Source of the DNA: Gekko japonicus
Taxonomy: Eukaryota
Assembly (NCBI RefSeq): GCF_001447785.1
Contig: NW_015175988.1
Span: forward strand, 328,833-392,832
Reading direction: 5' to 3'
Length of the DNA stretch: 64,000 nucleotides
The position numbers were made by a program, and so were the translations under genes. Positions 18,921 through 49,652 of the stretch are shown piece after piece. Position 1 is the stretch's first letter; the number at the start of each line of letters is the position of its first letter. Under the pieces are notes generated by a model. The model saw only the letters and a program-made list of their open reading frames with translations. It was not told where the DNA came from and made no database searches.

Positions 18921-20055
18921 GAACAAAGTCTGGGCAACTGAGTGCATGTGGCAGATACGTCTGATGGTGATTTTCTGGCTTCATGGTTTTTCGTTCCCTC
19001 TTTTTTGGTTTGTGTGTGTCTGGTGTAGGTCACACGTGCATTTGTGAGTTGGCTTGATGGGAGGGAGGCGGGGTAAAATAACGAAATAAACAAGAAACGT
19101 CACAGATTGAGTCTAAGAACTTTGGCATGCAAGGAACGATCGAGCGGGGCTCCCTTGAAAGAAAGATTATGAATAATCCATATTTCTTCATAGTTTCATT
19201 CCGTGGTGCCTTCACATATTCTAGATTCACATTAGGCGTTAGTCATGTGAGACATCCATATACTCTTAATTTTTTTTTATGCCCCTCCCAGTAGATATGC
19301 AGTTTTCACTGCCTACTTAGTATGGCTTTTGATTTGTACAACCAAGGACTGAGGGGCATGGGTTCCCTCTCATACAGCTTAAGGTAATTAAGTTTGTGAG
19401 GTCAATATGGCATGCATGACGGATTCTAAAGAGCTACTAGTAAATCAGTTGGAAGGGTCCTGGGTACACACCTTTCAAGTCATTGTTTACACTTCCTGCC
19501 TGGAAATCAGATCTCAGTCAGTGCTGTATAATCTTGGAGAGTTTTTAATAGACCCATGGAAAACAGAAAGAAAATAAAATGATCTGTCAGCAAAGAAAAT
19601 AAGACACTTTTCCTACTCCCGGAGGGGGCTTTTCTGAGAAATATAAATCTCTATTTGCACAGGAAAGTTCTCTTCTTTCAAAAGCAGGCATTTGGTTTTA
19701 ATACAGTGACATAGGAAAGCCCTTGACATTAATCCTACTATGGGTAATTGCTTGCTTATTGACCCTACGCAAGGGTCTATACTGAGTATACTCTCACTCC
19801 TTGAAAATGTGAAAGAGAAGAATCCTAAGCAGGTCTACTGAAAATCCAACTCAGGACTATTCAGTGTGGCTTACTCCCAGGAAAGTGTTCTTCTTTAAAT
19901 TGCTCTGAAGGTTTGAGGGTTTTGTGAGTTTCATTCCACAGGATTGCTGTTGCTTTGTATTCAAAATGAGGACTTTCTGTTTTTTTCCCCATCTCAGCCT
20001 TCAATGATTGATCATATTGATTATTCATAGTATAAGTTTCCAGTTACCTCTAACC

Positions 20056-20491: not shown

Positions 20492-20987
20492 CTCTAACCT
20501 ATATCCAGATTTCTTCTGTCTGAGAAACTTTAACATAGCATAACAGCTAAGTTTATGTAACATAGTATATATGTAAGTATGCTGTGGCATGAGATTTGGG
20601 ATCCAACCAAACAGGAGCCTGTCCTACAGTGTAATACAGGACAGTAGGTAGGAAGGGAGGCACATGATCCAGCAATCTTTCTGAAGCTGATCAGGCCTAG
20701 GTGTCGTTAGTTTCTTGGTGGGATCTCCTAGAAATACCACATATGCTGTTTTAAATTCAGTGACAGAGGAAAGTCAGTATATAAATGTAAAAAATAAAAA
20801 ATAGTCTTTAGAGTTTCCCACTTTGGAATATATGCCTATTAAGTTCTAGATCCTGGAATTCTTTAAGACTTCCTGCAGTTCAGAGCATTCAGTCCCTCAT
20901 ATGTGCTCTGTAAGTTCTTTCCTCAAGGTATGTGGTGCTTCTTAAACCCTGTCTGCATACTGTGGGCATTTATTTGTTTTTATTTTA

Positions 20988-21298
20988 TTACACTTATAAT
21001 CTTCAGGAAGCTCCAAGTAGCTTACCTGGGCTTCTCAGGCACGCTCCCTTCCAAATACCGTCTAGGATGAGGTCTGTTTAAGTGTAACAAAGTGATGTAG
21101 CCATTAAAAGACTAGGCCTCAGAAGACCCAGGATCTCTTATGTTCTTATGTTCTTACACATATCATCTTCAGGAAGCTCCAGGTAGCTTACCTGGACTTC
21201 TCAGGCACTCTCCCTTCCAAATACCGTCTAGGCTGAGGTCTGTTTAAGTGTGACAAAGTGATGTAGCCGTTAAAAGACTAGGCCTCAGAAGACCCAGG
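20988..21298. repeat. 145-bp direct repeat flanking a 21-bp CR1 3' tail
   Basis: Copies at 20988-21132 and 21154-21298; spacer atctcttatgttcttatgttc. Confidence 0.9.
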
Positions 21299-26562: not shown

Positions 26563-26926
26563 TGGTGTGATAGAGAGAAACAAAAACATCTCCAGATACT
26601 GGACTGAGATTATAGTCTAACAGAAAAATTTGTACAGGCAGGTAAGAAGCATTAGAATTCAGTGATATTAGATGCCAACTACTATTCTTCCACCTTTACG
26701 CCACCATAGACTGTCTCCATTTTGGTGCCAATGTTCCCTCTAAGCCGAGTCAGTGTTGGTGTGATAGAGAGAAACAAAAACATCTTCAGATACTGGACTG
26801 AGATTATAAATAGTCTAACAGAAAAAATCTGTACAGGCAGGTAAGAAGCATTAGAATTCAGTGATATTGGATGCCAACTAGTATTCTTCCACCTTTACGC
26901 CGCCATAGACTGTCTCCATTTTGGTG
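26563..26926. repeat. ~165-bp direct repeat flanking a 29-bp hAT terminus
   Basis: Copies at 26563-26727 and 26757-26926; spacer ccaatgttccctctaagccgagtcagtgt. Confidence 0.9.
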
Positions 26927-31364: not shown

Positions 31365-31516
31365 GTTACCGTAGCGACTGTGCTTTATTGAGTCATTGGT
31401 TTAGAATGATTTCCTCTGTCCAGCGATTCCCTCAGGGCTCCAACCGAGCAGCCGTCTTTCCTATAATTGAGCAGCTAGGCCAGGTGACGTTCTTGCCTAT
31501 TTCCTCCAGAGGAAGT
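31365..31516. promoter_or_regulatory. Putative regulatory motif cluster
   Basis: X-box-like GTTACCGTAGCGAC (31365), AP-1 TGAGTCA (31389), reverse CCAAT, CRE half-site TGACGT (31485), ETS AGGAAGT (31510). Motif matches only. Confidence 0.3.
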
Positions 31517-32177
31517 AGGCTTAATGAATGAAAAACTCATTTGACTACAAAGCATTGGGTCGTCCATCATGAAATAAGAAAATGACTAACCCCAAATGGA
31601 AACTTGCGTGGTTACCAGTAATGCACAAGATGCTGTAAAAATCCACAGTCCTGGATTTGCAACATACTCAGCAGGGTCAGTGCCAGTCAGTAGGAGTGCC
31701 ATGTGATTCTTGCAAACCAATCCCTTCACAGGACCACAAGACACAAGCACTGGCTCAGACAATTGCTAAAAACCTTGCAAGACAATATCTCTGCCTCTAC
31801 CTCCCAGGAGAATTCCCCATTTTGCTCTCAATGCCACCATGCAAACAGAGGCATCTACAGTTGCAACAGAGCTTTCACACAAGGGATTTCCCCATGTTTC
31901 CCCCTCATGTCTGCCACTTCCCCCCAGGGCTTTTTGCCAGTTTGTTTTTATCAGCAAGAGAAATACTGCTAGAGTGTTAGGACACAAAGAGATATATCTA
32001 GTATCGATACAAAGAAAACCCAGGAAAAGCCTGCCGGTGACAACAGGAAAATGGCAGCCCAAGGTAAATGGCTCTCGATGTAGGTGATGAGGTGCAGAAA
32101 TCTGCATCTGCCCATCCACACTCTCCCCAAACCCACTTTGTGTACGAGGAAGATCATTGCAAAGCAGCTTTGGGAAA

Positions 32178-32810
32178 TCTCTCCTTATATATAATTGAGT
32201 AAGGGAGCGGAGAAAAAATGCGCACCGTCAGCCATTGGCCCGCCAGCTGCCGCTCAAGGCTGCTGCCATGCCATTGGCTGGGAGGCAGGAGGCGAACGAT
32301 GCGAGCGGACGCTGCTGCCAGGAGCCGGGGAAGGGATGCTGAAAGGCCAGGCAACGGGGCTGGGTGGGGGCCAGCGCCAGGAGGATGTGGCAGCCCCGGA
32401 AAAGCGGAATGTCAGCGAGGGGGACGGCAGAGGCCGGGGACGGCGGGTGAGGAGCTCATTCCCGGCCGGCCAGCCGGTCCACCTCACTCCACCACCTTCT
32501 TCGGCGGAGAAGCCCTGTGCCGGGGCCACCTGGCCTCAGGGATGGGGGAGGTGGCCACCATGCCCGGGGACTGGTAGGTGGCCCCCCCCACCGCACCGAT
32601 TACCGCCTCCATGAACCATGTGACGATGATCCAGCGCGGCCTGAGGCACTCACTCCAGCCAGGCACGTCTTTGCTCTCCTACCTCTTCGCCGGTGAAAGG
32701 CAAAGTCCTTCAGTGGGGTGAGATTGTGGCCCCGCCAAACGCGAGGCCTCTTTTTGGCGGCCGCACCGGCCTTCCCTCGCATGTCCTCCCGCAACGGGCA
32801 TTTCCCCTAG
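32178..32810 (+). mobile_element. Non-autonomous Helitron, GC/CpG-rich
   Basis: A|TCtctccttatatataa...gcaacgggcatttcccCTAG|T; no TIR or TSD; first 24 nt identical to the element at 37191 (-). Confidence 0.75.
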
Positions 32811-33794
32811 TGACAGAGCAAAGATGGAGAAATCCTGGAAGATTGACGATGTTTCCACACGGCTGTTTGGCTCTGCCTTGGCTTGCCTTCAGCAGTGCTG
32901 TTTTTTGGGAGCATGAGAAGCCAGCTCATTTTCCATGCTACACTATGCTGCCTCTGATTCTCCTTTCTATACTCCTCCTTTTCTCTTTCCATGTTCAGTT
33001 TTTCATTTTATATAATCCAAAGGAAGATTTATACAAACCGCTTTAAAGTACCGTTGATTTCAGTGGAAGCGGCATGCATGTGTTTCAGATCTCTCTCTTA
33101 CATCCTACTGTGCTCTACTTTCAAGGTCCTCGGGAAGGTATTTGTGATTCTCCCTTTCACCATGTTATCTTCCTAACTGCCCTGTGATGGTGGTCAGACT
33201 GTTGGCCTAAGATCTTCCAGGCAGTTTCATGGCAGAGCGGGAACTCAAACACAGATGACACTCTAATCAGTATACCACACTGGCTAGTCTGCTGTACCAC
33301 AATCACTTCTTCTTTGCCCCCATTTTGTGTAACACTGGATCAAGGACCTGAACATTGGAAATTTGACCGTTATGGGGAAAGTACATCCATGTGCATAGGA
33401 TTAACCGACCTCCAGGTGGGGCCTGGAGATCTCCCACTATTACAGTTGATCGCCATACGATAGAGATCCGTTCCCCTGGAGAAAATGGATGCTTTGGATG
33501 GCAGACTCTATGGCATCGCACCATGCTAAGGTCCCTCCCCTCTCAAACCCTGCTCTCTCTAGGCTCCACCCACCCAATGACCACATATTTCCCAATCTAG
33601 AGTTGGCAACCCTACGTCAGTCCATGTGAGTGTTGCCTCAAATTAAACCCTGAGTGTCCCATGTTGGTTAGGCTCATAGACTATCTGTTTTTCAAAATAC
33701 TGTACTGGAATAAACCTCCCTTCTCCTGAACCTTCTTTGCCAGAAAGCTATTCTTTTTTTTTTCTGTGAGAAATACCTCCAGCAGGGAAGCTTA

Positions 33795-34729
33795 TCTCCC
33801 TTGTATATAAAAGCCGAATGGTGGTGGCACTTCTCTAGAACATTCCACACGCTCCGGAATTGGTTGGTGCCCTGGTGTGTCACTCAGAATCTGTCCCTAT
33901 CCATTGGCTGCATTGCTTGAGTCTCGCCTCCAACATTCTAAACAGTTTGCTGTTCCTCTCCCCCCCCATAGCCAGTCAGAATACAGAGGTTATTTGCATA
34001 TGCAGCCTCATTGGCCTTTGCCTCGGAACACAGAGGTTGTTTGCATATGCGACTTGATTGGCTTTTGCCTCTAATATTCTAAACAGTTTGCAGTTCTGAG
34101 GTAAAATGTGTCCAATCTCCAGGTGAGGGCTGGAGATCACTCAGAATTACAACTGCTTTCCAGATGGCAGAGATCAGTTCCCCTGGAGAAAATGGTGGAC
34201 TCTGTATCCTTATATGCTGCTGAGGTGGCTCCTGTATGACAGCCAATGTAACATAGCAGTCGGGGCTTCAGAGCACAGGAGAGGCTGCAGGTGTGTGGGG
34301 GGGTGGAAAGCTGAAGAGTGAGGGGGAAATAAAGGTAGGTTGATAATGAGCCGGGAAGGAGATAGGGTTGCCAACTCCAGGTGGGAAATTCCTGGAGATG
34401 TGAGGGATGGAGCCTGGAGAGGGTGAGGTTTCAGGAGGCGTGGGACCTCAGAAAGGTACAAAGCCATAGACTCCACCCTCCAAACCAACCATTCCCTTCT
34501 GGGGAACCATCGTTGCCAGTCTCCAGGTGAGGGCTGGAGATCACTCAAAATTACAACTGTTCTTTAGGTAGCAGAGATCAGTTCCTCTGGAGAAAATGGT
34601 GGACTCAGTGTCATTATACCCTGCTGAGGTCGCCACAGCAAATTGACACTGTTTGCCCAAAGCCAGGGCACTCTCCCAGAGCCTCTTTCTAGAGATCGTA
34701 TTTATTTCCACAACGAGCCTTTTTCCTAG
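33795..34729 (+). mobile_element. Non-autonomous Helitron
   Basis: A|TCtcccttgtatataaaa...cacaacgagcctttttcCTAG|T; interior homologous to 36282-37191; includes hAT-MITE-derived segments. Confidence 0.75.
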
Positions 34730-35657
34730 TCTCTATATAATTCACTAGTTTTCCGGTGTCCCCCAATTTTTTTATTATTATCAAACGAAATTTATTAACA
34801 GCCAACGAAGAAAAATGTTTAAATATTTGATCCACGTGTCCACTTTTAGGGACAAAGTATGAAACACAGAGGGGTTCTTCAGAGTTCAGGCTCACCACAT
34901 ACAAACACCAAAGGTCCCCCTGAAGCCCAGGCCATAGCCAGAGGCCTAGTATCTCATGCCTAATGAGGGAGCTCTGTAATCTGTCATGCTCTTTGCTGGG
35001 AGGATATTTATACCAACATTTAGAACAGCACTCGTCTTAACAATCTCGGGTTTGTGTCAGTAAGTCAGATGACCTGCTACAAATTTGCAAGTTCTCTGTA
35101 TCCTGCTGTTTAAAAGCGGCAGAAATGGAAATAGCACAGCTAGCAACTGGGGCACTTGGACATTAGAGCGAAAAGGGGACAATGAGGTCCTTATGATCAG
35201 TTCCCATCATGCAAATGCAGTTAAAAACAAGAGAATACACCTATTTAAGTGAATAATTGTGCCTGTCGGGCAAACCTTCACAGATGCTTTGCCCATCCGT
35301 CTTGAACTCTTTGACCGGATTGTGTACAAGGCTACCAACCTCAGAAAGTATCTTACTTCTATCAATAGGAATGACCTCTAAATCAGTATATGATCATTAG
35401 GTTTCTTTCATGGATTGGCCTGTGCCCCCAATTTAAACGGCTAATGAATTATCTAGCTAACAGTATTAAAAGCCTTCAAATACAAAAAAGAAGACTTTGT
35501 TTATTCAGCTCTGTTAAGACACAAGACAGGCAACAGTGTCACTCTTTTGTAAATATCCTTACTTTAAATAGAATGTTCCTTAAAACATGTTTGGGATGGG
35601 CAATACAAAACTGACATTTGAGTCAATTTTGTATATATATTTGCTTTGGCTATTCAG

Positions 35658-35759
35658 AGAGACTGGATGCCTCCAAGAGTTGATAATGAGAAGGAAGTAA
35701 AGATCCAGAACATTAGAAAGAATGCAAATTTTGCTGGGATTAAAATGAGTCCTGCAAAG
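35658..35759 (+). CDS. Weak candidate 102-nt exon (RDWMPPRVDNEKEVKIQNIRKNANFAGIKMSPAK)
   Basis: Acceptor ttgctttggctattcag, donor AAG|gtatct, single open frame, phase 0-0; no partner exons found. Confidence 0.2.
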
Positions 35760-36281
35760 GTATCTCTGAAGTTGTTGTAGATTTTCCGGGCTATATGGCC
35801 ATGGTCTTGGCATTGTAGGACCTGACGTCCTGGCATCCTCAGAGGTATAACACAGAAAGATGAAGTACTCTCTGTGTCAAGGTGAGAAGAAAAATGATAG
35901 GCAGGTAATTTATATCTACACAGGAAGGTGGGGTAGGGCTGAGTCATTATCCTGTAGGAGTTCCCCAGGCTGTGACATGCTAATGGAGGAACTTTCCTGA
36001 GGAGGTTATTTTGCATATGGATTGGCTGGTTTGATTGGGGAAAGAGATAAGAAAGGTAACAGATAAGAAAGTTGTGTTGGAATAATCCCATACCTGTATA
36101 TCACAATACCCAGAATCCATCCCCCAGTTCACATCACTTCTTTCGCAGGGAAACTCTCCACCTAAATTGATATTTCACCTCAGAGTAATAGTTATGTGAA
36201 ACAATCCTATGACTTAAAATCACAAATCCAGTCCCCTCGCGAAAGCTAGAAAAGTAGTGATTTGCAGCTTTATTAAAGGCA

Positions 36282-37191
36282 CTAGGAATAAGGCCCATTG
36301 TGGAACTAAATACAATGAGCGCTAGAAAGAGGCTCTGGGAGAGTGCCAAGGCTGTGGGCACTCAGAACCAATTTGCCATGGCAACCTAAGCAGGGTATAA
36401 GGACACAGAGTCCACCATTTTCTCCAGGGGGATGGATCAATGCCATCTGGAGAGCAGTTGTAATTCTGAGTGATCTCCAGCCCGCACCTGGAGACTGGCA
36501 ACAGTGGTTCCCCATTATGGAATGGCTGGTTTGGAGGGCAGAGTCTATTGCATTGTACCTGACTGAGGCCCCACTCCTCCTCAAACCTCACCCTCTCCAG
36601 GCTCCATCTCTCAAATCTCCAGGATTTTCCCATCTACTTCTCAGCCAATCATCAACCTACATTCCCCCCTCATTGATCAGCTTTCCATCTGCCTCCCCAC
36701 CAGCAGCTCCCACCGTGCTCTGAAGCCGACTGTCACATATCTGTGGCAGTAATGGGGTGACTGCTTGCACCTTTTCCTATCATTTTTTGCCTTGTGGTAT
36801 TCTGCTGGTGTTGTGATATTTTTTGTGGTGTGGCATGATTGTGTTATTGGGTTTGTTTCTTTTGAAGGGGAAGTGATGTGTTGTGTGTGAGGACATATTT
36901 TACCTCAGAATACAGCAGGTCCCATATGCAACTGACAGTTCCAACTGTCTCGTGGGGGGGGTGAGTTTGAGGTGCGGAATGGAGTGAAGGCCAGTCAGCT
37001 TCCATATGCAAATGACCTTGAAACGCTGGCCCAATCAGAGAAGAGTGGCCTAGGCTGCAGTGGGTGGGAGAGAACTCAGGCAACACAGCCAGTGGATAGA
37101 GATACCTTGTGATTGACACATCACGGAGCCAACTGATTTTGGAGTGCATAGAACATTGTGGGACCACTACTCAATTATATATAAGGAGAGA
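36282..37191 (-). mobile_element. Non-autonomous Helitron
   Basis: Minus strand reads A|TCtctccttatatataattgagta...gctcattgtatttagttccacaatgggc (hairpin) cttattcCTAG|T. Confidence 0.8.
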
Positions 37192-37338
37192 TTGGTTTGT
37201 TATTGTATGAGTTTTGGAAGGGTAGGGGGAAACACTTCAAGCTGACTCTTGTGCCTTGAATATAGCCATAGAAATTGGCTTCACCCTCTCTGTGATCAGG
37301 AAGCAAGTGAAATATCATTAATACCTTTATCAGAGAGG

Positions 37339-38412
37339 CACACACATGCCAAAAGTAGCTTCAACTGATTATATCCCTGGTACTATTTTGTTTTGTTGCC
37401 ATGTCAGAGCCCACTTACAGTGACTCCATAGGATTTTCAAGGCAAGAGACATTCAGAGGTGGTTTGCCATTGCTTGCCTCCACATCGCGACCCTGGTATT
37501 CCAAATACTGACCAGGGCCAAACCGGCTTAACTTCTAAGATCTGATGAGATCTGGCCTGGACCAAGCCCCCAGCCCTCCTTCACTATGTTTTTCACAGGT
37601 GTCCTTACTAACAAATCCCAGCCGATCAGTGTGGTATACAGCTGGTTTCTAACTTGAACATACAGAAATGTCCCCCTCCAATCAATCCTGAAGAGAAAAC
37701 ATTCACGTGGACAAAATATGGTAAAGATGTTTGCATAAAAACTCCAACATTCCAAGTGTGTATATTGGCTGCACTCTTAAAATAACCATAATAATTAAGA
37801 GGTGTTCCCTTTTGTACCAGAGGAGAAGGCCTTTTACAAGATGGCACCACGATTTGCAAGGTGATTGTACAAAAACACACATGCCAAAAGTAGCTTCAAC
37901 TGATCTTATTATATCCCTGGTACTATTTTGTTTTGTTGCCAAGTCAGAGCCCACTTACAGTGACTTCATAGGATTTTCAAGGCAAGAGACATTCAGAGGT
38001 GGTTTGCCATTGCTTGCCTCCACATCACGACCCTGGTATTCCAAATACTGACCAGGGCCAAACCGGCTTAACTTCTAAGATCTGATGAGATCTGGCCTGG
38101 ACCAAGCCCCCAGCCCTCCTTCACTATGTTTTTCACAGGTGTCCTTACTAACAAATCCCAGCCGATCAGTGTGGTATACAGCTGGTTTCTAACTTGAACA
38201 TACAGAAATGTCCCCCTCCAATCAATCCTGAAGAGAAAACATTCACGTGGACAAAATATGGTAAAGATGTTTGCATAAAAACTCCAACATTCCAAGTGTG
38301 TATATTGGCTGCACTCTTAAAATAACCATAATAATTAAGAGGTGTTCCCTTTTGTACCAGAGGAGAAGGCCTTTTACAAGATGGCACCACGATTTGCAAG
38401 GTGATTGTACAA
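37339..38412. repeat. ~540-bp near-identical tandem duplication
   Basis: cacacatgccaaaagtagc...gtgattgtacaaaaa occurs twice with ~4 differences, all in the first 160 bp. Confidence 0.9.
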
Positions 38413-39668
38413 AAAAAGTTTCAGAAATCTTCGGCATGATTAATTATAGCCATCCTTTTGTTCTATCAACTGGTATAGACCCAGTTTGGTGTAGTGGTTA
38501 AGTGCGTGGACTCTAATCAGGGAGAACCGGGTTTGATTCCCCACTCCTCCACTTGCACCTGGCTGGATGACCTTGGGCAAGCCGCAGTTCTGACAAGAGC
38601 TGTTCTTGAAAAAGAGCAGTTTCTGTCAAGAGCTCTCTCAGCCTCACCTACCTCACAGGGTGTCTGTTGTGGGGAGGGGAAGGGAAAGGAGTTTGTAAGC
38701 CGCTCTGAGACACCTTTGGGTTGTGAAGGGCGGAGTATAAATCCAATCTCTTCTTCTCTTCTTCTCCTTCTAAATGGATCAAGTTATCTGATTTGTGGCA
38801 TGCCAGAATGGGTTCATAGAGACTGTAAGACTACTCTTTCAGGGGGGCTGTGCTGGTTCTCTGCTTTTTTAATCACTGTGGAAGACACACACACCCCTTT
38901 AAAATATCCTGTTTAGGGCAACCTTTGATTCTGTGATTCTGTTTTTGTGTAAACTGGGCTTTCGCAACCAAGGTTTCACAGTTTCTTGGCTGACGCAGTT
39001 CCCATCTGATGAGGGTTGAGGAGATTTGAGAAATGTGTTTTTGTTATTTTTTTTAAAATGTATTTTAATATTTGGTTGGAAGTGGCTTTGAACTTTCTGC
39101 AAGGTGGGATTAAAAATTATAACTAAATTAATTAATTGGCTTCTTGTTGCTGATCGTGAGTATGGCAGCCCCAAACATCCAAGTCATGGCAAATCAAAGA
39201 AGGGAGACGGTTTGGACAGTGGGAACGAAACCTGGGACCAAGCAGTCACCGATCCTTTCGGTCCCTCAGTTGTCCAGCTGTAGTGTCAAAAATATTGTAC
39301 GGTAAAAGATAAGCCCTGCCACAGACACGGGAATTAGTAGTTGTGTAAATGATCTCTTAGGGTAAAAATGAATGGCATAATTCTGATGTGTCAGGGACTC
39401 TTGCTCCAAATCAAAGTTGCCAGTTTGCCAGTGATTCTTAAAGGCTTCTCTTTCCTCTCTATTGTGAGTTAATGCCTATTTTTGTGAGTTGCTGTACCTT
39501 GTGTTATGTTGCGATGATGAAGTCTTGCCACTAACAATGCATGCATCAGAGAGAAAGAGTGAAAAGGAGGGGGAGAGAGGTGTAAAAGTCAGCAAAGAAG
39601 GAAATCCCAGTGCCCAATTGGGAAACACCTGGCTTTGATCTTGAATTGTTCCTCCCTAATCCTGAACT

Positions 39669-45774: not shown

Positions 45775-46110
45775 TCCCAAATACATTTATTTGGCAGTAG
45801 GCAGTATTGTTCCCCGTGTGATCGGCTTCGACTAAAGGCTTTTTTTTTAGGGGAAAAATATCCAGGCTACTACAGTAAACGGAGGAGGGAGAGCAGAGCC
45901 CAGTTTACCAGGATGGGTGGGATGAAGGCGCCCAGGGCTGGGTCCCAAATACATTTACTTGGCAGTAGGCAGTATTGTTCCCCGTGTGATCGGCTTCGAC
46001 TAAAGGCTTTTTTTTTAGGGGAAAAATATCCAGGCTACTACAGTAAACGGAGGAGGGAGAGCAGAGCCCAGTTTACCAGGATGGGTGGGATGAAGGCGCC
46101 CAGGGCTGGG
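45775..46110. repeat. 168-bp tandem duplication upstream of the promoter gap
   Basis: Two copies with one mismatch; this explains the repeated peptide in ORF 45763..46152. Confidence 0.92.
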
Positions 46111-46551
46111 TGGGCAGTGGGCGTGGCCTCCATGGGGACTGCGGAGGGCTGAAGTTTATTATAGGCGGGAGCGCCCACTCGGAGAGGGCTTTTTTTTTTC
46201 CTTTTGGNNNNNNNNNNNNNNNNNNNNNNNNNNNNNNNNNNNNNNNNNNNNNNNNNNNNNNNNNNNNNNNNNNNNNNNNNNNNNNNNNNNNNNNNNNNNN
46301 NNNNNNNNNNNNNNNNNNNNNNNNNNNNNNNNNNNNNNNNNNNNNNNNNNNNNNNNNNNNNNNNNNNNNNNNNNNNNNNNNNNNNNNNNNNNNNNNNNNN
46401 NNNNNNNNNNNNNNNNNNNNNNNNNNNNNNNNNNNNNNNNNNNNNNNNNNNNNNNNNNNNNNNNNNNNNNNNNNNNNNNNNNNNNNNNNNNNNNNNNNNN
46501 NNNNNNNNNNNNNNNNNNNNNNNNNNNNNNNNNNNNNNNNNNNNNNNNNNN

Positions 46552-46790
46552 GACTCCGGAGCCGCCCGAGGAGCAGCAGCGGCAGCAGCAGCGGCCGCCG
46601 CCTTTGCCTGCCTGGCGCCTGAAGGGCTCGCCGAGTGCGAAGGGCGGCGTTCGGCGGAGGCTGCGATGAGCTGAAAGAGGCGCTGCCCCGAGGAGCGATC
46701 CTGGGACGCCGCCGCTTCCTTGCATGCAGCTGGCCGCGCCGCGTCTCTTTTCGAGGCGGCCAGAGAAGCGGGAGATCATGATTCTGACAC
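46552..46790 (+). other. First exon of an unidentified gene (5' UTR, possibly with start codon)
   Basis: Strong donor CAC|GTAAGT at 46790/46791 inside the CpG island; GCA/GCG/GCC repeats; ATGs at 46666, 46724 and 46778. Confidence 0.7.
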
Positions 46791-47204
46791 GTAAGTGGGC
46801 CTTGGGGGGGCGGGGGTCCTACAGATGTGGAAACGCCGCCGCCGCAGCCAGCGGTTTCTTCGGCTGCTCTTTTTCTGCGTGTTGAACCTTGAAATGCCTA
46901 GACTGGGGAGGACGCGGCGCCTTTGGCTGCGCCGCTTCAGGGCCAGGCGTTCGCCCGCGGCGCTCTGTACGCGCTCAGAGGAGCCGCTCTCCGGTATTCA
47001 CGCGGTTCAAAAGTGACCTTTCGCAACGAAAGCAGCGATTGAAAGGAAAGGGGGGATGAGGCAGAGAAGTCGGCAACGTCTGGGGCTCTTGCTGCATGGG
47101 AAGGTGGGCAGCCGTGTCCAGGGCGCGTTTCCTCGGCGGGGAGCCCCACCGCGGCCAGCCTCCTCCCCACGCAAGGGTGGGCTGAGGGGGGCTGCTCCGG
47201 GCTG

Positions 47205-47438
47205 CCTTCGCCCGGCCCTCCCTGGAGGGGGCGAGAAGCGAAGGCGACGCTGCGGTTTGCGGCGGGGGTCGCTGCCCGGAGCCGCTTGCGGGAAGCTGGG
47301 GGGCCGAGCCCCGGGGGGCAGCTCCAGGCTTCCTTCGCCCGGCCCTCCCTGGAGGGGGCGAGAAGCGAAGGCGACGCTGCGGTTTGCGGCGGGGATCGCT
47401 GCCCGGAGCCGCTTGCGGAAAGCTGGGGCGCCGAGCCC
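47205..47438. repeat. 127-bp-period GC-rich tandem duplication in intron 1
   Basis: ccttcgcccggccctccctggagggggcgagaagcg... at 47205 and 47332. Confidence 0.85.
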
Positions 47439-49652
47439 GCTCTGGCTCCGGGGAGGTTCCAGCCGGGGCGAAGGAGGAGGCGGCTCCTTGCCGGAGATGG
47501 GGCGATTAGACCGGCGTAGCCTTTGCTCGGGCGGGGGTGCTGCAGCGGCTGGAATCTGGGTCGGGGTCTCGGGCGGGCAGAGTCGAAAGGGCAGCGGAGG
47601 AGGGCCGTCGGAGGGAGACCCTTATCTTTGCACGTAGGCGCAAAAGGCTGCGGGGGATCGCCTCCTTCTGCTGCGGAGGCTCTGGCGCGCCTGTGGAGGC
47701 GTCTGGTTTGTGTCACCCGCCTGGATTTCTCCGCGGCGGCGTTTCGGACCCGGCGGTGTTTGGAATTTCTCCCGGACGCCTTGGAAGCTGGACGATCTTC
47801 TTGTTCTTCCAGTCGGTCTTCTCCTTTTCATCGAAGCAAAGCATTTTGTGCATATCATAACCTGACCGATTTCTGTGTTTTTTTTTTTAAAAATCCACCG
47901 GTGAGATTGACTTGAGGAAATGACATTCACGTTTTCTCAAGTGGAGGTAATGTAAAAGTTCCGAGGAAAAAGAGAAGACGGATCCTTGGCTGGCCGGAGC
48001 CATGTGGGCAACTTACCTTGAAATGTGTTTTAGATTAGACCTCCCCCCCCTCCCAATTTCATGCCAAAATGCTCTCTGTGATGGTATTCATCTGTGCAAG
48101 AGCAGCTTGGAGCTCTGCACTGGGGAGGGATGTTAAAGGGAAAGGCCAAAGATGAAAGGGTTAAATTAGGGTGTGTGATCCCCCCCCCTTTTTAGTGCCC
48201 AAGAGAAGGAAGCTAACAGTCCCCTTTTGAAGTTTTCAATAATTAGTCTGGTGGCTCCTAGGAGCCAGATGCCTCCCTCCCCCCACCAACCCGGTGGTGG
48301 CCTGGCTCTGATGATGTCATCCGGCGAACCTTTGATCCCTTTCAAGGAGCAACACCCCCTGCCAGTCATAAACAATCCCTTGTATTTCCAGCACAAACAG
48401 AAAACAAATTCTTTTTGTTGTCTGGCTACCTTGGGTACCACCCTCCCTCCCTCCCTTCCTTCGCACAGACCTGCCAATGGCGCGCTTACGGCATCATTGT
48501 GAAGAACATGTTTCCATTAAGCTAATGGAGCCCCTCTACCTGAACAGCAGTCAATTAGATGTAAAACATTTAGGTTAATTGTCGAGCAGGCGGAGTGTTC
48601 TTCTTTAAGGATTTTTTTCTCTCTCTCTCTGATCCCCCTTAAAAGTATGCATGTATTCATCAGTGGTTGTTAATATGGTACCCTTGTAATTTTTTTCTTT
48701 AGATGTACCCAGTTTGCTTCTAGGCAGAAAAAGTTATTCACAATGAAGTAATAATGTGGAAATTAAAGGTTATTTACCACCCCTCTTCAGTGCTGTTTTG
48801 AAGGAGCTTGCCTTTTGCATTCACATCCTTCTTTTAAACACCCATGCATGCTAGCAACTAGCAAATAGTTTTGCTGCTTGTCATCACTGACAAAGTCACA
48901 ATTAAACATAGTAAACTTTTGCCCTCTCCTGGGCCAGGGGATTGATCCAGCTTGGCAAGTCTTGCTCACTGTCTGTCAGTCTAGGAGCCCTGCCTGAAAA
49001 CCAAGAGCCTTTTAACTGAAGATATCTGGTACTGATGTGATGCTTGCAAAGAAGGTGTTATCCTGCTAAATTATGGCTCCTTCCCCAAAAAACGTGGGAG
49101 GGGCCGTGTCATAGTGGTAAAGGATCCACTTGGCATGTAAAAGGTCCCAGGTCTAGTCCCTGGCATGTCCAGTTTCAAGGATCAGGCACTAGGTGGTGTG
49201 AAAGAGCAGAGACTTTTTCATCATGGCCCCTTCGAGAAGTTCATTGGTTGTCTTGTTTGACTTCTTTATGGAAACAAAGTAAGGCATAGCTTACAGTATT
49301 TTGAAACCAAGACTGGTTTTGCTGTTGCTTTTATTGTTCATTTTTATGTTTAGTAGTTTTGTAAATAGGGAAACTGTGTTGGATACAGCCAGTGTTTCTA
49401 CTCACTCTCGCCAAATTCTCTTCCTTATTACGGGGCCCATCCCATCTGGTTTTTGTCCCCGCAGGTCCTGTGATGCCCATGTAGCCTTTTGGGATGATCA
49501 AGGGAGACCCCACCACCTATTTTAACCAGCAGAAAAGCTGGATCCAGGCTCAATTTTCCAGTGTCAGAATGTAACTTTCCTGTCCTCGCCCTTTCATAAA
49601 ATATAAATAGATAACCTAAACTGTTGAGCCGCACTTTTTGGGTCTGTTACAG

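What the first reader, a model, noticed from the sequence alone, without database searches (positions are those of the whole stretch)
32178..37191. Cluster of three related non-autonomous Helitrons within 5 kb
Seen: three blocks (32178-32810 +, 33795-34729 +, 36282-37191 -) each begin TC followed by TATATAA, end CTAG, sit between A and T, have no TIR or TSD, and carry a subterminal (c/g)caa(c/t)g(g/a)gc hairpin arm. Copies 1 and 3 share their first 24 nt, while copies 2 and 3 share interior and 3' sequence, so the termini are shuffled. Established: these are the defining Helitron hallmarks. Inference: a possibly uncatalogued gecko rolling-circle family that hops locally or favours this site. 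I noticed no other copy in the window.
Basis: partly seen in the sequence, partly recalled or inferred. Interest (0 to 1): 0.7.

Follow-up and report, generated by a model that had tools for sequence, protein, structure and literature searches.

The report
Three independent short Helitron insertions
Three short, protein-less jumping-DNA copies lie within 5 kb, each from a different subfamily spread across the genome and each missing from the same spot in a related species; they likely moved by the known rolling-circle (Helitron) route with an enzyme made elsewhere, and their closeness is most likely chance.

Summary
The three blocks are real canonical (HLE1) non-autonomous Helitrons: A|TC...CTAG|T ends, no target duplication, and clean A|T empty sites for all three in a related organism. 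They are not a local-hopping cluster. Each belongs to its own genome-wide subfamily; copies 2 and 3 are 90-96% and 89-93% like copies on other contigs but 79% like each other. The shared 3' motif occurs 13,464 times in G000. Around 100 other family members, neighbours were no commoner than chance (4 seen, 4.8 expected), and 2-5 such triplets are expected genome-wide. Broken 10.6-kb RepHel elements with related ends exist, but their last 30 nt fall short of 80% identity. Copy 1 has lost the left hairpin arm. One side result: 77 of 120 insertions have a WATAW box 6-7 nt past the insertion point, against 1.7% of AT sites, resembling the element's own 5' end. The scan noted other non-autonomous Helitrons in this genome before. 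Whether Repbase or Dfam hold these families was not testable.

The parts
32178..32810 (+). Copy 1: non-autonomous HLE1 Helitron, GC-rich subfamily (66% GC, 45 CpG), internally deleted; other members mostly 708-858 nt
   Evidence: empty site
32178..32201 (+). Left terminal 24-mer shared with copy 3; 954 exact copies in G000, followed by at least four different interiors
32783..32784 (+). Deletion junction in copy 1 (about 177 nt lost, including the left hairpin arm); found only here in G000
32791..32810 (+). Right hairpin arm and CTAG end of copy 1
33396..33614 (.). Separate, older ~220-nt dispersed repeat with decayed inverted ends (MITE-like), present in organism C; pieces of this repeat family make up much of the interiors of copies 2 and 3
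33795..34729 (+). Copy 2: full-length member of a 909-941 nt subfamily; left hairpin arm lacks 3 nt
   Evidence: empty site
34112..34633 (+). Fragments of the MITE-like repeat inside copy 2 (34112-34229, 34363-34507 inverted, 34516-34633)
34730..34742 (+). Target flank of copy 2, TC followed by a TATA-like box (WATAW at +5 and +7), resembling the element's own 5' end
36282..37191 (-). Copy 3: full-length member of a 920-942 nt subfamily
   Evidence: empty site
36293..36320 (-). Intact subterminal hairpin of copy 3, 9-bp stem, 11 nt from the CTAG end
37168..37191 (-). Left terminal 24-mer of copy 3, identical to that of copy 1

Best explanation
Three non-autonomous canonical Helitrons from three different genome-wide subfamilies sit at three A|T sites that are empty in a related organism; they likely inserted independently, likely moved in trans by a RepHel transposase of the related 10.6-kb elements, and their closeness is likely chance. 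Mechanism (inferred from Helraiser, PMC4778049): the HUH domain nicks at the 5' TC, the helicase peels off one strand, the 3' hairpin signals termination at CTAG, and a circular intermediate is inserted between A and T with no duplication. Shown here: termini, missing TSD, empty sites, copy numbers, separate subfamilies, no excess of neighbours, a downstream WATAW target box. Inferred: the enzyme, the circle step, independent timing, and that copy 1 lost its left hairpin arm during or after its own insertion.
For: Boundaries in dispersed copies: A before TC in 75 of 79, T after CTAG in 73 of 75 (of 87 loci; the rest had an end not recognised), flank duplications no different from shuffled pairs in 67. 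Stem of 7+ bp in 95 of 120 3' ends. Run X5 (organism C): one contig joins 33794 to 34730, another 36280 to 37191, a third crosses copy 1 with 8 letters for 8; X14 (C) and X3/X4 (B) also lack copy 1, X3 lacks copy 2. Tree of the shared 3' module splits copy 2 with 23 kin from copy 3 with 24 kin at 100/100. 4 neighbours against 4.76 expected in 880 kb around 100 members; 2.4-4.8 triplets expected in the genome. RepHel element on G000:C15658 (Helitron_like_N, PIF1, Pif1_2B) starts with a near-match to the copy 1/3 head and ends in hairpin-CTAG|T.
Against: Three in one 64-kb window has Poisson P = 0.005, and none of the 100 test loci had two neighbours. Gaps under 2 kb among the first 100 listed 3' ends were 4 against 1.3 expected (P = 0.04), so some short-range clustering may exist. 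The clustering test saw only 4 events and cannot exclude a twofold excess. The RepHel ends match the window copies at only 19-23 of the last 30 nt (family medians 17-23), under the 80% family line, and no intact RepHel frame was seen in 10 loci examined of 34 places. Two of 67 copies had 6-nt flank matches against 0.15 expected; both lie in (AT)n runs (L095, L099).
Confidence: 0.85

Rival explanations
1. Real local hotspot: independent insertions, but this 5-kb stretch was favoured (open germline chromatin, or Helitrons attracting Helitrons).
For: P = 0.005 for three in 64 kb, mild excess of gaps under 2 kb; a review passage states that maize Helitrons insert near other Helitrons (PMC12477314); nested or adjacent copies seen at C14036 and C3898; 8 exact head-to-tail joints in G000.
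Against: 4 neighbours seen against 4.76 expected around 100 members; the window was picked for the cluster; the three copies are neither nested nor touching (984 and 1,552 nt apart); the other 59 kb hold no copy.
Confidence: 0.11
2. Local hopping or local recombination: one copy gave rise to the others, shuffling the ends on the spot.
For: Shared 24-mer (copies 1, 3) and shared 3' half (copies 2, 3) within 5 kb.
Against: Each whole architecture recurs on many other contigs; copies 2 and 3 are 21% apart but 4-5% from remote kin; Helraiser showed no local hopping in 701 events (PMC4778049 section 10).
Confidence: 0.02
3. Not Helitrons: composite repeats moved by another route (cut-and-paste MITE, retroposition, HLE2) or assembly artefacts.
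For: Interiors of copies 2 and 3 contain pieces of a MITE-like repeat; no exact autonomous partner found; the window has several near-identical tandem duplications.
Against: No TSD, different sequences at the two ends, no poly-A tail, A|T not T|T sites, empty sites with no gain or loss; run X1 holds single-depth contigs identical to the interior of copy 1.
Confidence: 0.02

Closest known systems
Non-autonomous HLE1 (canonical Helitron) elements, e.g. HelibatN moved by Helraiser (PMC4778049, PMC11417382)
   Same: 5' TC, 3' hairpin about 11 nt before CTAG, insertion between A and T, no TSD, thousands of non-coding copies, AT-rich bias on the 3' side of the target, head-to-tail joints, captured internal pieces.
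   Different: Own terminal sequences; interiors built from host-lineage repeats rather than gene pieces; the 3'-side bias is a positioned WATAW box, where the Helraiser text speaks only of AT-richness (its logo could not be seen).
HeligloriaB of the green anole (PMC2997563)
   Same: Non-autonomous Helitron amplified in a lizard genome (667 copies in that paper).
HLE2 / Helentron
   Same: Rolling-circle, no TSD, 3' stem-loop.
   Different: HLE2 has short terminal inverted repeats and inserts at T|T (PMC11417382); these insert at A|T and start TC.

Membership tests
HLE1 (canonical Helitron), non-autonomous | 5' TC | tested here: met
   3 of 3 window copies; dispersed copies; 8,294 A+TC heads against 81 control
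HLE1 (canonical Helitron), non-autonomous | 3' CTRR | tested here: met
   CTAG in 3 of 3; 13,464 pattern matches, control 0
HLE1 (canonical Helitron), non-autonomous | Subterminal hairpin 10-15 nt from the end | tested here: met
   95 of 120 family ends; intact in copy 3, reduced in copy 2, left arm deleted in copy 1 but present in its kin
HLE1 (canonical Helitron), non-autonomous | Insertion between A and T, no TSD | tested here: met
   75 of 79 and 73 of 75; duplications as in shuffles; empty sites for all three
HLE1 (canonical Helitron), non-autonomous | No transposase coding | tested here: met
   0 of 136 window frames of 85+ aa pass a Pfam cut-off
HLE1 (canonical Helitron), non-autonomous | RepHel partner with related termini in the genome | tested here: inconclusive
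   Related ends on 7 RepHel loci, both ends on 2; all seen are broken or gapped; trans-mobilisation not shown
Same family as the C15658/C14036 RepHel elements (80% over the last 30 nt, rule quoted in PMC2997563) | >80% identity over the last 30 nt | tested here: not met
   19-23 of 30 for the window copies; family medians 17-23, best single row 24. Sister subfamilies L051, L053, L059, L060 carry the copy 1/3 head and the RepHel-type tail
HLE2 / Helentron | T|T insertion and short terminal inverted repeats | tested here: not met
   A|T sites; no inverted pair joining the two ends of any copy among those listed
Named Repbase/Dfam families (e.g. HeligloriaB, anole Helitron-N families) | Sequence identity of termini to the catalogued consensus | not testable with these tools
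   No Repbase or Dfam library is held

The most novel reading that the evidence does not exclude
This Helitron lineage picks targets that mimic its own left end: the transposase reads A|T plus a WATAW box 6-7 nt downstream with the surface that binds the TC...TATATAA start, so existing Helitron heads are themselves preferred targets, which builds head-to-tail chimeras and drives the swapping of ends between subfamilies.
Probability: 0.3. Interest if true: 0.5.

Novelty: new member of a known kind. Interest (0 to 1): 0.22.

Why it matters
As a cluster it does not matter: it is an ordinary by-product of a very abundant repeat group. The group is of modest use: more than 13,000 copies, with insertions younger than the split from organisms B and C, give presence/absence markers and add a lizard-type case to the few vertebrate Helitron bursts described. 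The positioned target box is the one point a specialist may care about: if it reflects the enzyme reading its own left-end sequence, Helitron target choice is more specific than 'AT-rich', which bears on how subfamilies exchange ends and on Helitron-based tools.

Tried and rejected
Local hopping: rejected. General clustering: not seen. A hairpin-less subfamily behind copy 1: the deletion junction, with one mismatch allowed, occurs once in G000, at this locus. Captured gene or RNA in the copies: 0 of 136 window frames pass a Pfam cut-off, two weak hits below cut-off outside the copies; no Rfam match in 31500-38000. Exact autonomous partner: 10 Rep loci and 20 helicase loci (half of them the same elements) gave only the sister-type tail; 14 of the 20 showed no such tail within the 1.5 kb held. 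Horizontal transfer: no protein relative above 54% (only the top 7,976 candidates of 925-2,640 aa were scored). Presence in other runs of organism A: X1 and X2 contigs reach 17-21 nt into the copies, under the tool's 31-letter bridging rule, so presence is only suggested; copy 3 in organism B and in A was not among the rows shown. Summed contig depth at the 24-mer is far higher in X1 than in X4, X5, X14, but depth is no copy number and is not used as support. Helitron density in the 200 kb beside the window was not measured. Look-ups of earlier notes by sequence and by target-motif words returned nothing.

Full report
Observation. The three blocks are at the stated places: 32178-32810 (+, 633 nt), 33795-34729 (+, 935 nt), 36282-37191 (-, 910 nt). 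Each follows an A, starts TC, ends CTAG and is followed by T. Copies 1 and 3 share 24 nt at the start and nothing else; copies 2 and 3 are 78.8% alike over 476 nt at the 3' end. With 30 heads, 30 tails and two RepHel elements from elsewhere as queries, no further terminus was found in the window. The hairpin differs by copy: 9 bp, 11 nt from the end, in copy 3 (z -2.8); a 4-bp remnant in copy 2; none in copy 1, which lacks about 177 nt, left arm included, that four aligned kin keep. That junction occurs once in G000, so it is likely private to this copy.

Each copy is a member of a dispersed subfamily. Copy 2 matched 39 other places over nearly its whole length at 90-96% (40 of 6,735 candidates scored), copy 3 matched 36 at 89-93% (40 of 8,590), copy 1 matched about 25 at 77-88% up to its deletion (40 of 837). 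Mean distance to kin was 6.2% (copy 2, n = 23), 5.3% (copy 3, n = 24) and 13.5% (copy 1, n = 19; 7.3% without CpG columns), as large as among the kin themselves (only loci with both ends recognised were used, and one copy 1 kin over 1,000 nt was dropped). A tree of the shared 470-nt module puts copy 2 with its 23 kin and copy 3 with its 24 kin on either side of a 100/100 branch (bootstrap not fully settled). Whole-genome counts: 954 exact 24-mers, 8,294 looser heads against 81 controls, 13,464 3' ends against 0. That 3' pattern caught 62 of 100 focal elements, so the true number is likely near 20,000. The 24-mer leads into at least four different interiors in 30 loci: the swapping of ends is real but took place when the subfamilies arose.

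Boundaries. Of 87 family loci, 79 had a recognised 5' end (A before it in 75) and 75 a 3' end (T after it in 73). In the 67 with both, flank duplications were 52 none, 11 of 2 nt, one each of 3 and 4 nt, two of 6 nt; shuffled pairs gave 53.6, 10.7, 1.9, 0.4, 0.15. The two 6-nt cases lie in (AT)n runs. 95 of 120 distinct 3' ends fold a stem of 7 bp or more.

Empty sites. In run X5 (organism C; flanks about 4-7% different), record 23 joins 33794 to 34730 and record 25 joins 36280 to 37191 with no letter between, which is exact removal of copies 2 and 3. Record 22 crosses copy 1 with T plus 8 letters where the window has T plus 8 letters; X14 (C, another study) shows the same, and X3 and X4 (B, one study) lack copy 1 too, with a short flank deletion. 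X3 also lacks copy 2. So all three likely inserted after the split from C, without gain or loss at A|T. The tables were cut, so copy 3 in B is unknown.

Is the cluster special? The pattern density is one per 185 kb. Three in one 64-kb window has P = 0.005, but 2.4 (3.5-kb span) to 4.8 (5-kb span) triplets are expected somewhere in the genome. I took 10 kb around 100 family members chosen by sequence likeness (39, 36 and 25 per subfamily): 4 extra 3' ends in 880 kb of flank, 4.76 expected; none had two. Among the first 100 listed ends, gaps under 2 kb were 4 against 1.3 (P = 0.04) and under 5 kb 5 against 3.1. A small short-range excess is thus possible, and nesting was seen (C14036, C3898), but the window's copies are 984 and 1,552 nt apart and not nested. 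Density in the DNA beside the window was not measured.

Enzyme source. PF14214 hit 34 places and PF21530 116 places in G000. Of 10 Rep loci read over about 20 kb, five end about 3.7-5 kb downstream in a hairpin-CTAG|T related to that of copies 2 and 3; C3412 and C2418 add two more. Two have a recognisable head: C15658 (10,601 nt) starts with a near-match to the copy 1/3 24-mer, C14036 (10,621 nt) with one closer to copy 2. C15658 carries Helitron_like_N, PIF1 and Pif1_2B in three separate frames; no intact frame was seen. Their last 30 nt match the window copies at 19-23 positions, under the 80% family rule quoted in PMC2997563, while sister subfamilies (L051, L053, L059, L060) join the copy 1/3 head to the RepHel-type tail. 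Helraiser needs the left end but not strictly the right (PMC4778049), so cross-mobilisation is plausible; it is inferred, not shown. The best full-coverage named relatives of the 528-aa piece are from a gecko (52-54%) and other lizards (49-52%).

Interiors. Copies 2 and 3 contain pieces of a ~220-nt dispersed repeat with decayed inverted ends, a free copy of which lies at 33396-33614 (36 long hits in 24 of 100 flank loci). Its ends recall hAT-Blackjack-type elements (recalled, not tested). Whether the Helitrons captured these pieces or were hit by them is open. Copy 1's GC-rich interior has no Pfam match.

Target box. Downstream of CTAG, positions +8 to +11 are 91-97% A/T. WATAW lies within +5..+14 in 91 of 120 insertions, against 25 (letters shuffled within each flank, maximum 43 of 1,000), 43 (columns shuffled, maximum 59) and 10 at +45..+54. 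It starts at +6 or +7 in 77 of 120, against 1.7% of background AT sites (38-fold). The left flank shows no such box (24 of 109 against 88 of 105 on the right, looser motif). The elements' own heads have WATAW at +8 or +9, so the likeness is close but about 2 nt out of register. Eight exact tail-to-head joints exist, where my rough estimate is 0.2-0.3 for random AT sites; two of the eight (L191, L193) join unlike heads, the rest could not be typed or may be rolling-circle or assembly repeats. In the window, copy 2 has the box at +5 and +7, copy 3 at +8, copy 1 not at all. These are retained insertions, not new ones, and the box could serve easy melting rather than recognition.

Literature seen. 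PMC4778049: passages and section 10 in full: AT targets, AT-rich bias strongest on the 3' side, no local hopping, circles; its logo figure is not held and may already show a positioned box. PMC11417382, PMC5876387, PMC2997563, PMC13286980, PMC12477314: passages only. Earlier scan notes describe two other non-autonomous Helitron findings in this genome (unchecked).

Verdict. Ordinary canonical non-autonomous Helitrons, new members of a known kind at most; the cluster is most likely chance (0.85). Interest 0.22, carried mostly by the clean empty sites and the target box.

Noticed in passing
window 37340-38415; also 1737-2182, 20975-21298, 26563-26926, 45775-46111, 47186-47438: Several two-copy tandem duplications of 127-540 nt at 93-99% identity; real duplications or assembly artefacts.
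   Followed up: no
G000:C14036 (L181/L182), right after the RepHel element's 3' end: A non-autonomous Helitron starts 3 nt after the CTAG of the 10.6-kb RepHel element, same strand.
   Followed up: partly
G000:C3898 (L187): A full-length copy 2-type element (90% identical) lies on the opposite strand just downstream of the helicase frame of a RepHel element of another family.
   Followed up: no
L041, L048: Elements with the copy 1/3 head carry a 107-nt unit repeated 12 or more times in tandem: a Helitron-borne minisatellite.
   Followed up: no
L102, L016, L191-L198: Direct CTAG|TC tail-to-head joints between Helitrons, some of unlike subfamilies.
   Followed up: partly
G000:C2:2034660-2034698: A minus-strand 3' end abuts the TATA-like box inside the head of a plus-strand element: likely one Helitron inserted into another's 5' end.
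   Followed up: no
G000:C15808 and C8342; C16382 and C3898: Two further RepHel lineages without the tail described here; termini not determined.
   Followed up: no
G000:C11350 (L171/L172): The last 1 kb of the RepHel element, with the same flank, appears twice 8.8 kb apart; possibly an assembly duplicate.
   Followed up: no
window 46001-48000: The most GC-rich 2-kb bin of the window (0.53), with a 127-nt GC-rich tandem at 47186-47438; may be a CpG-island promoter.
   Followed up: no
window 32203-32290: In organisms B and C this piece of copy 1's interior occurs behind other upstream sequence (loose ends), so the copy 1 subfamily may have formed by joining the head to an older repeat.
   Followed up: partly
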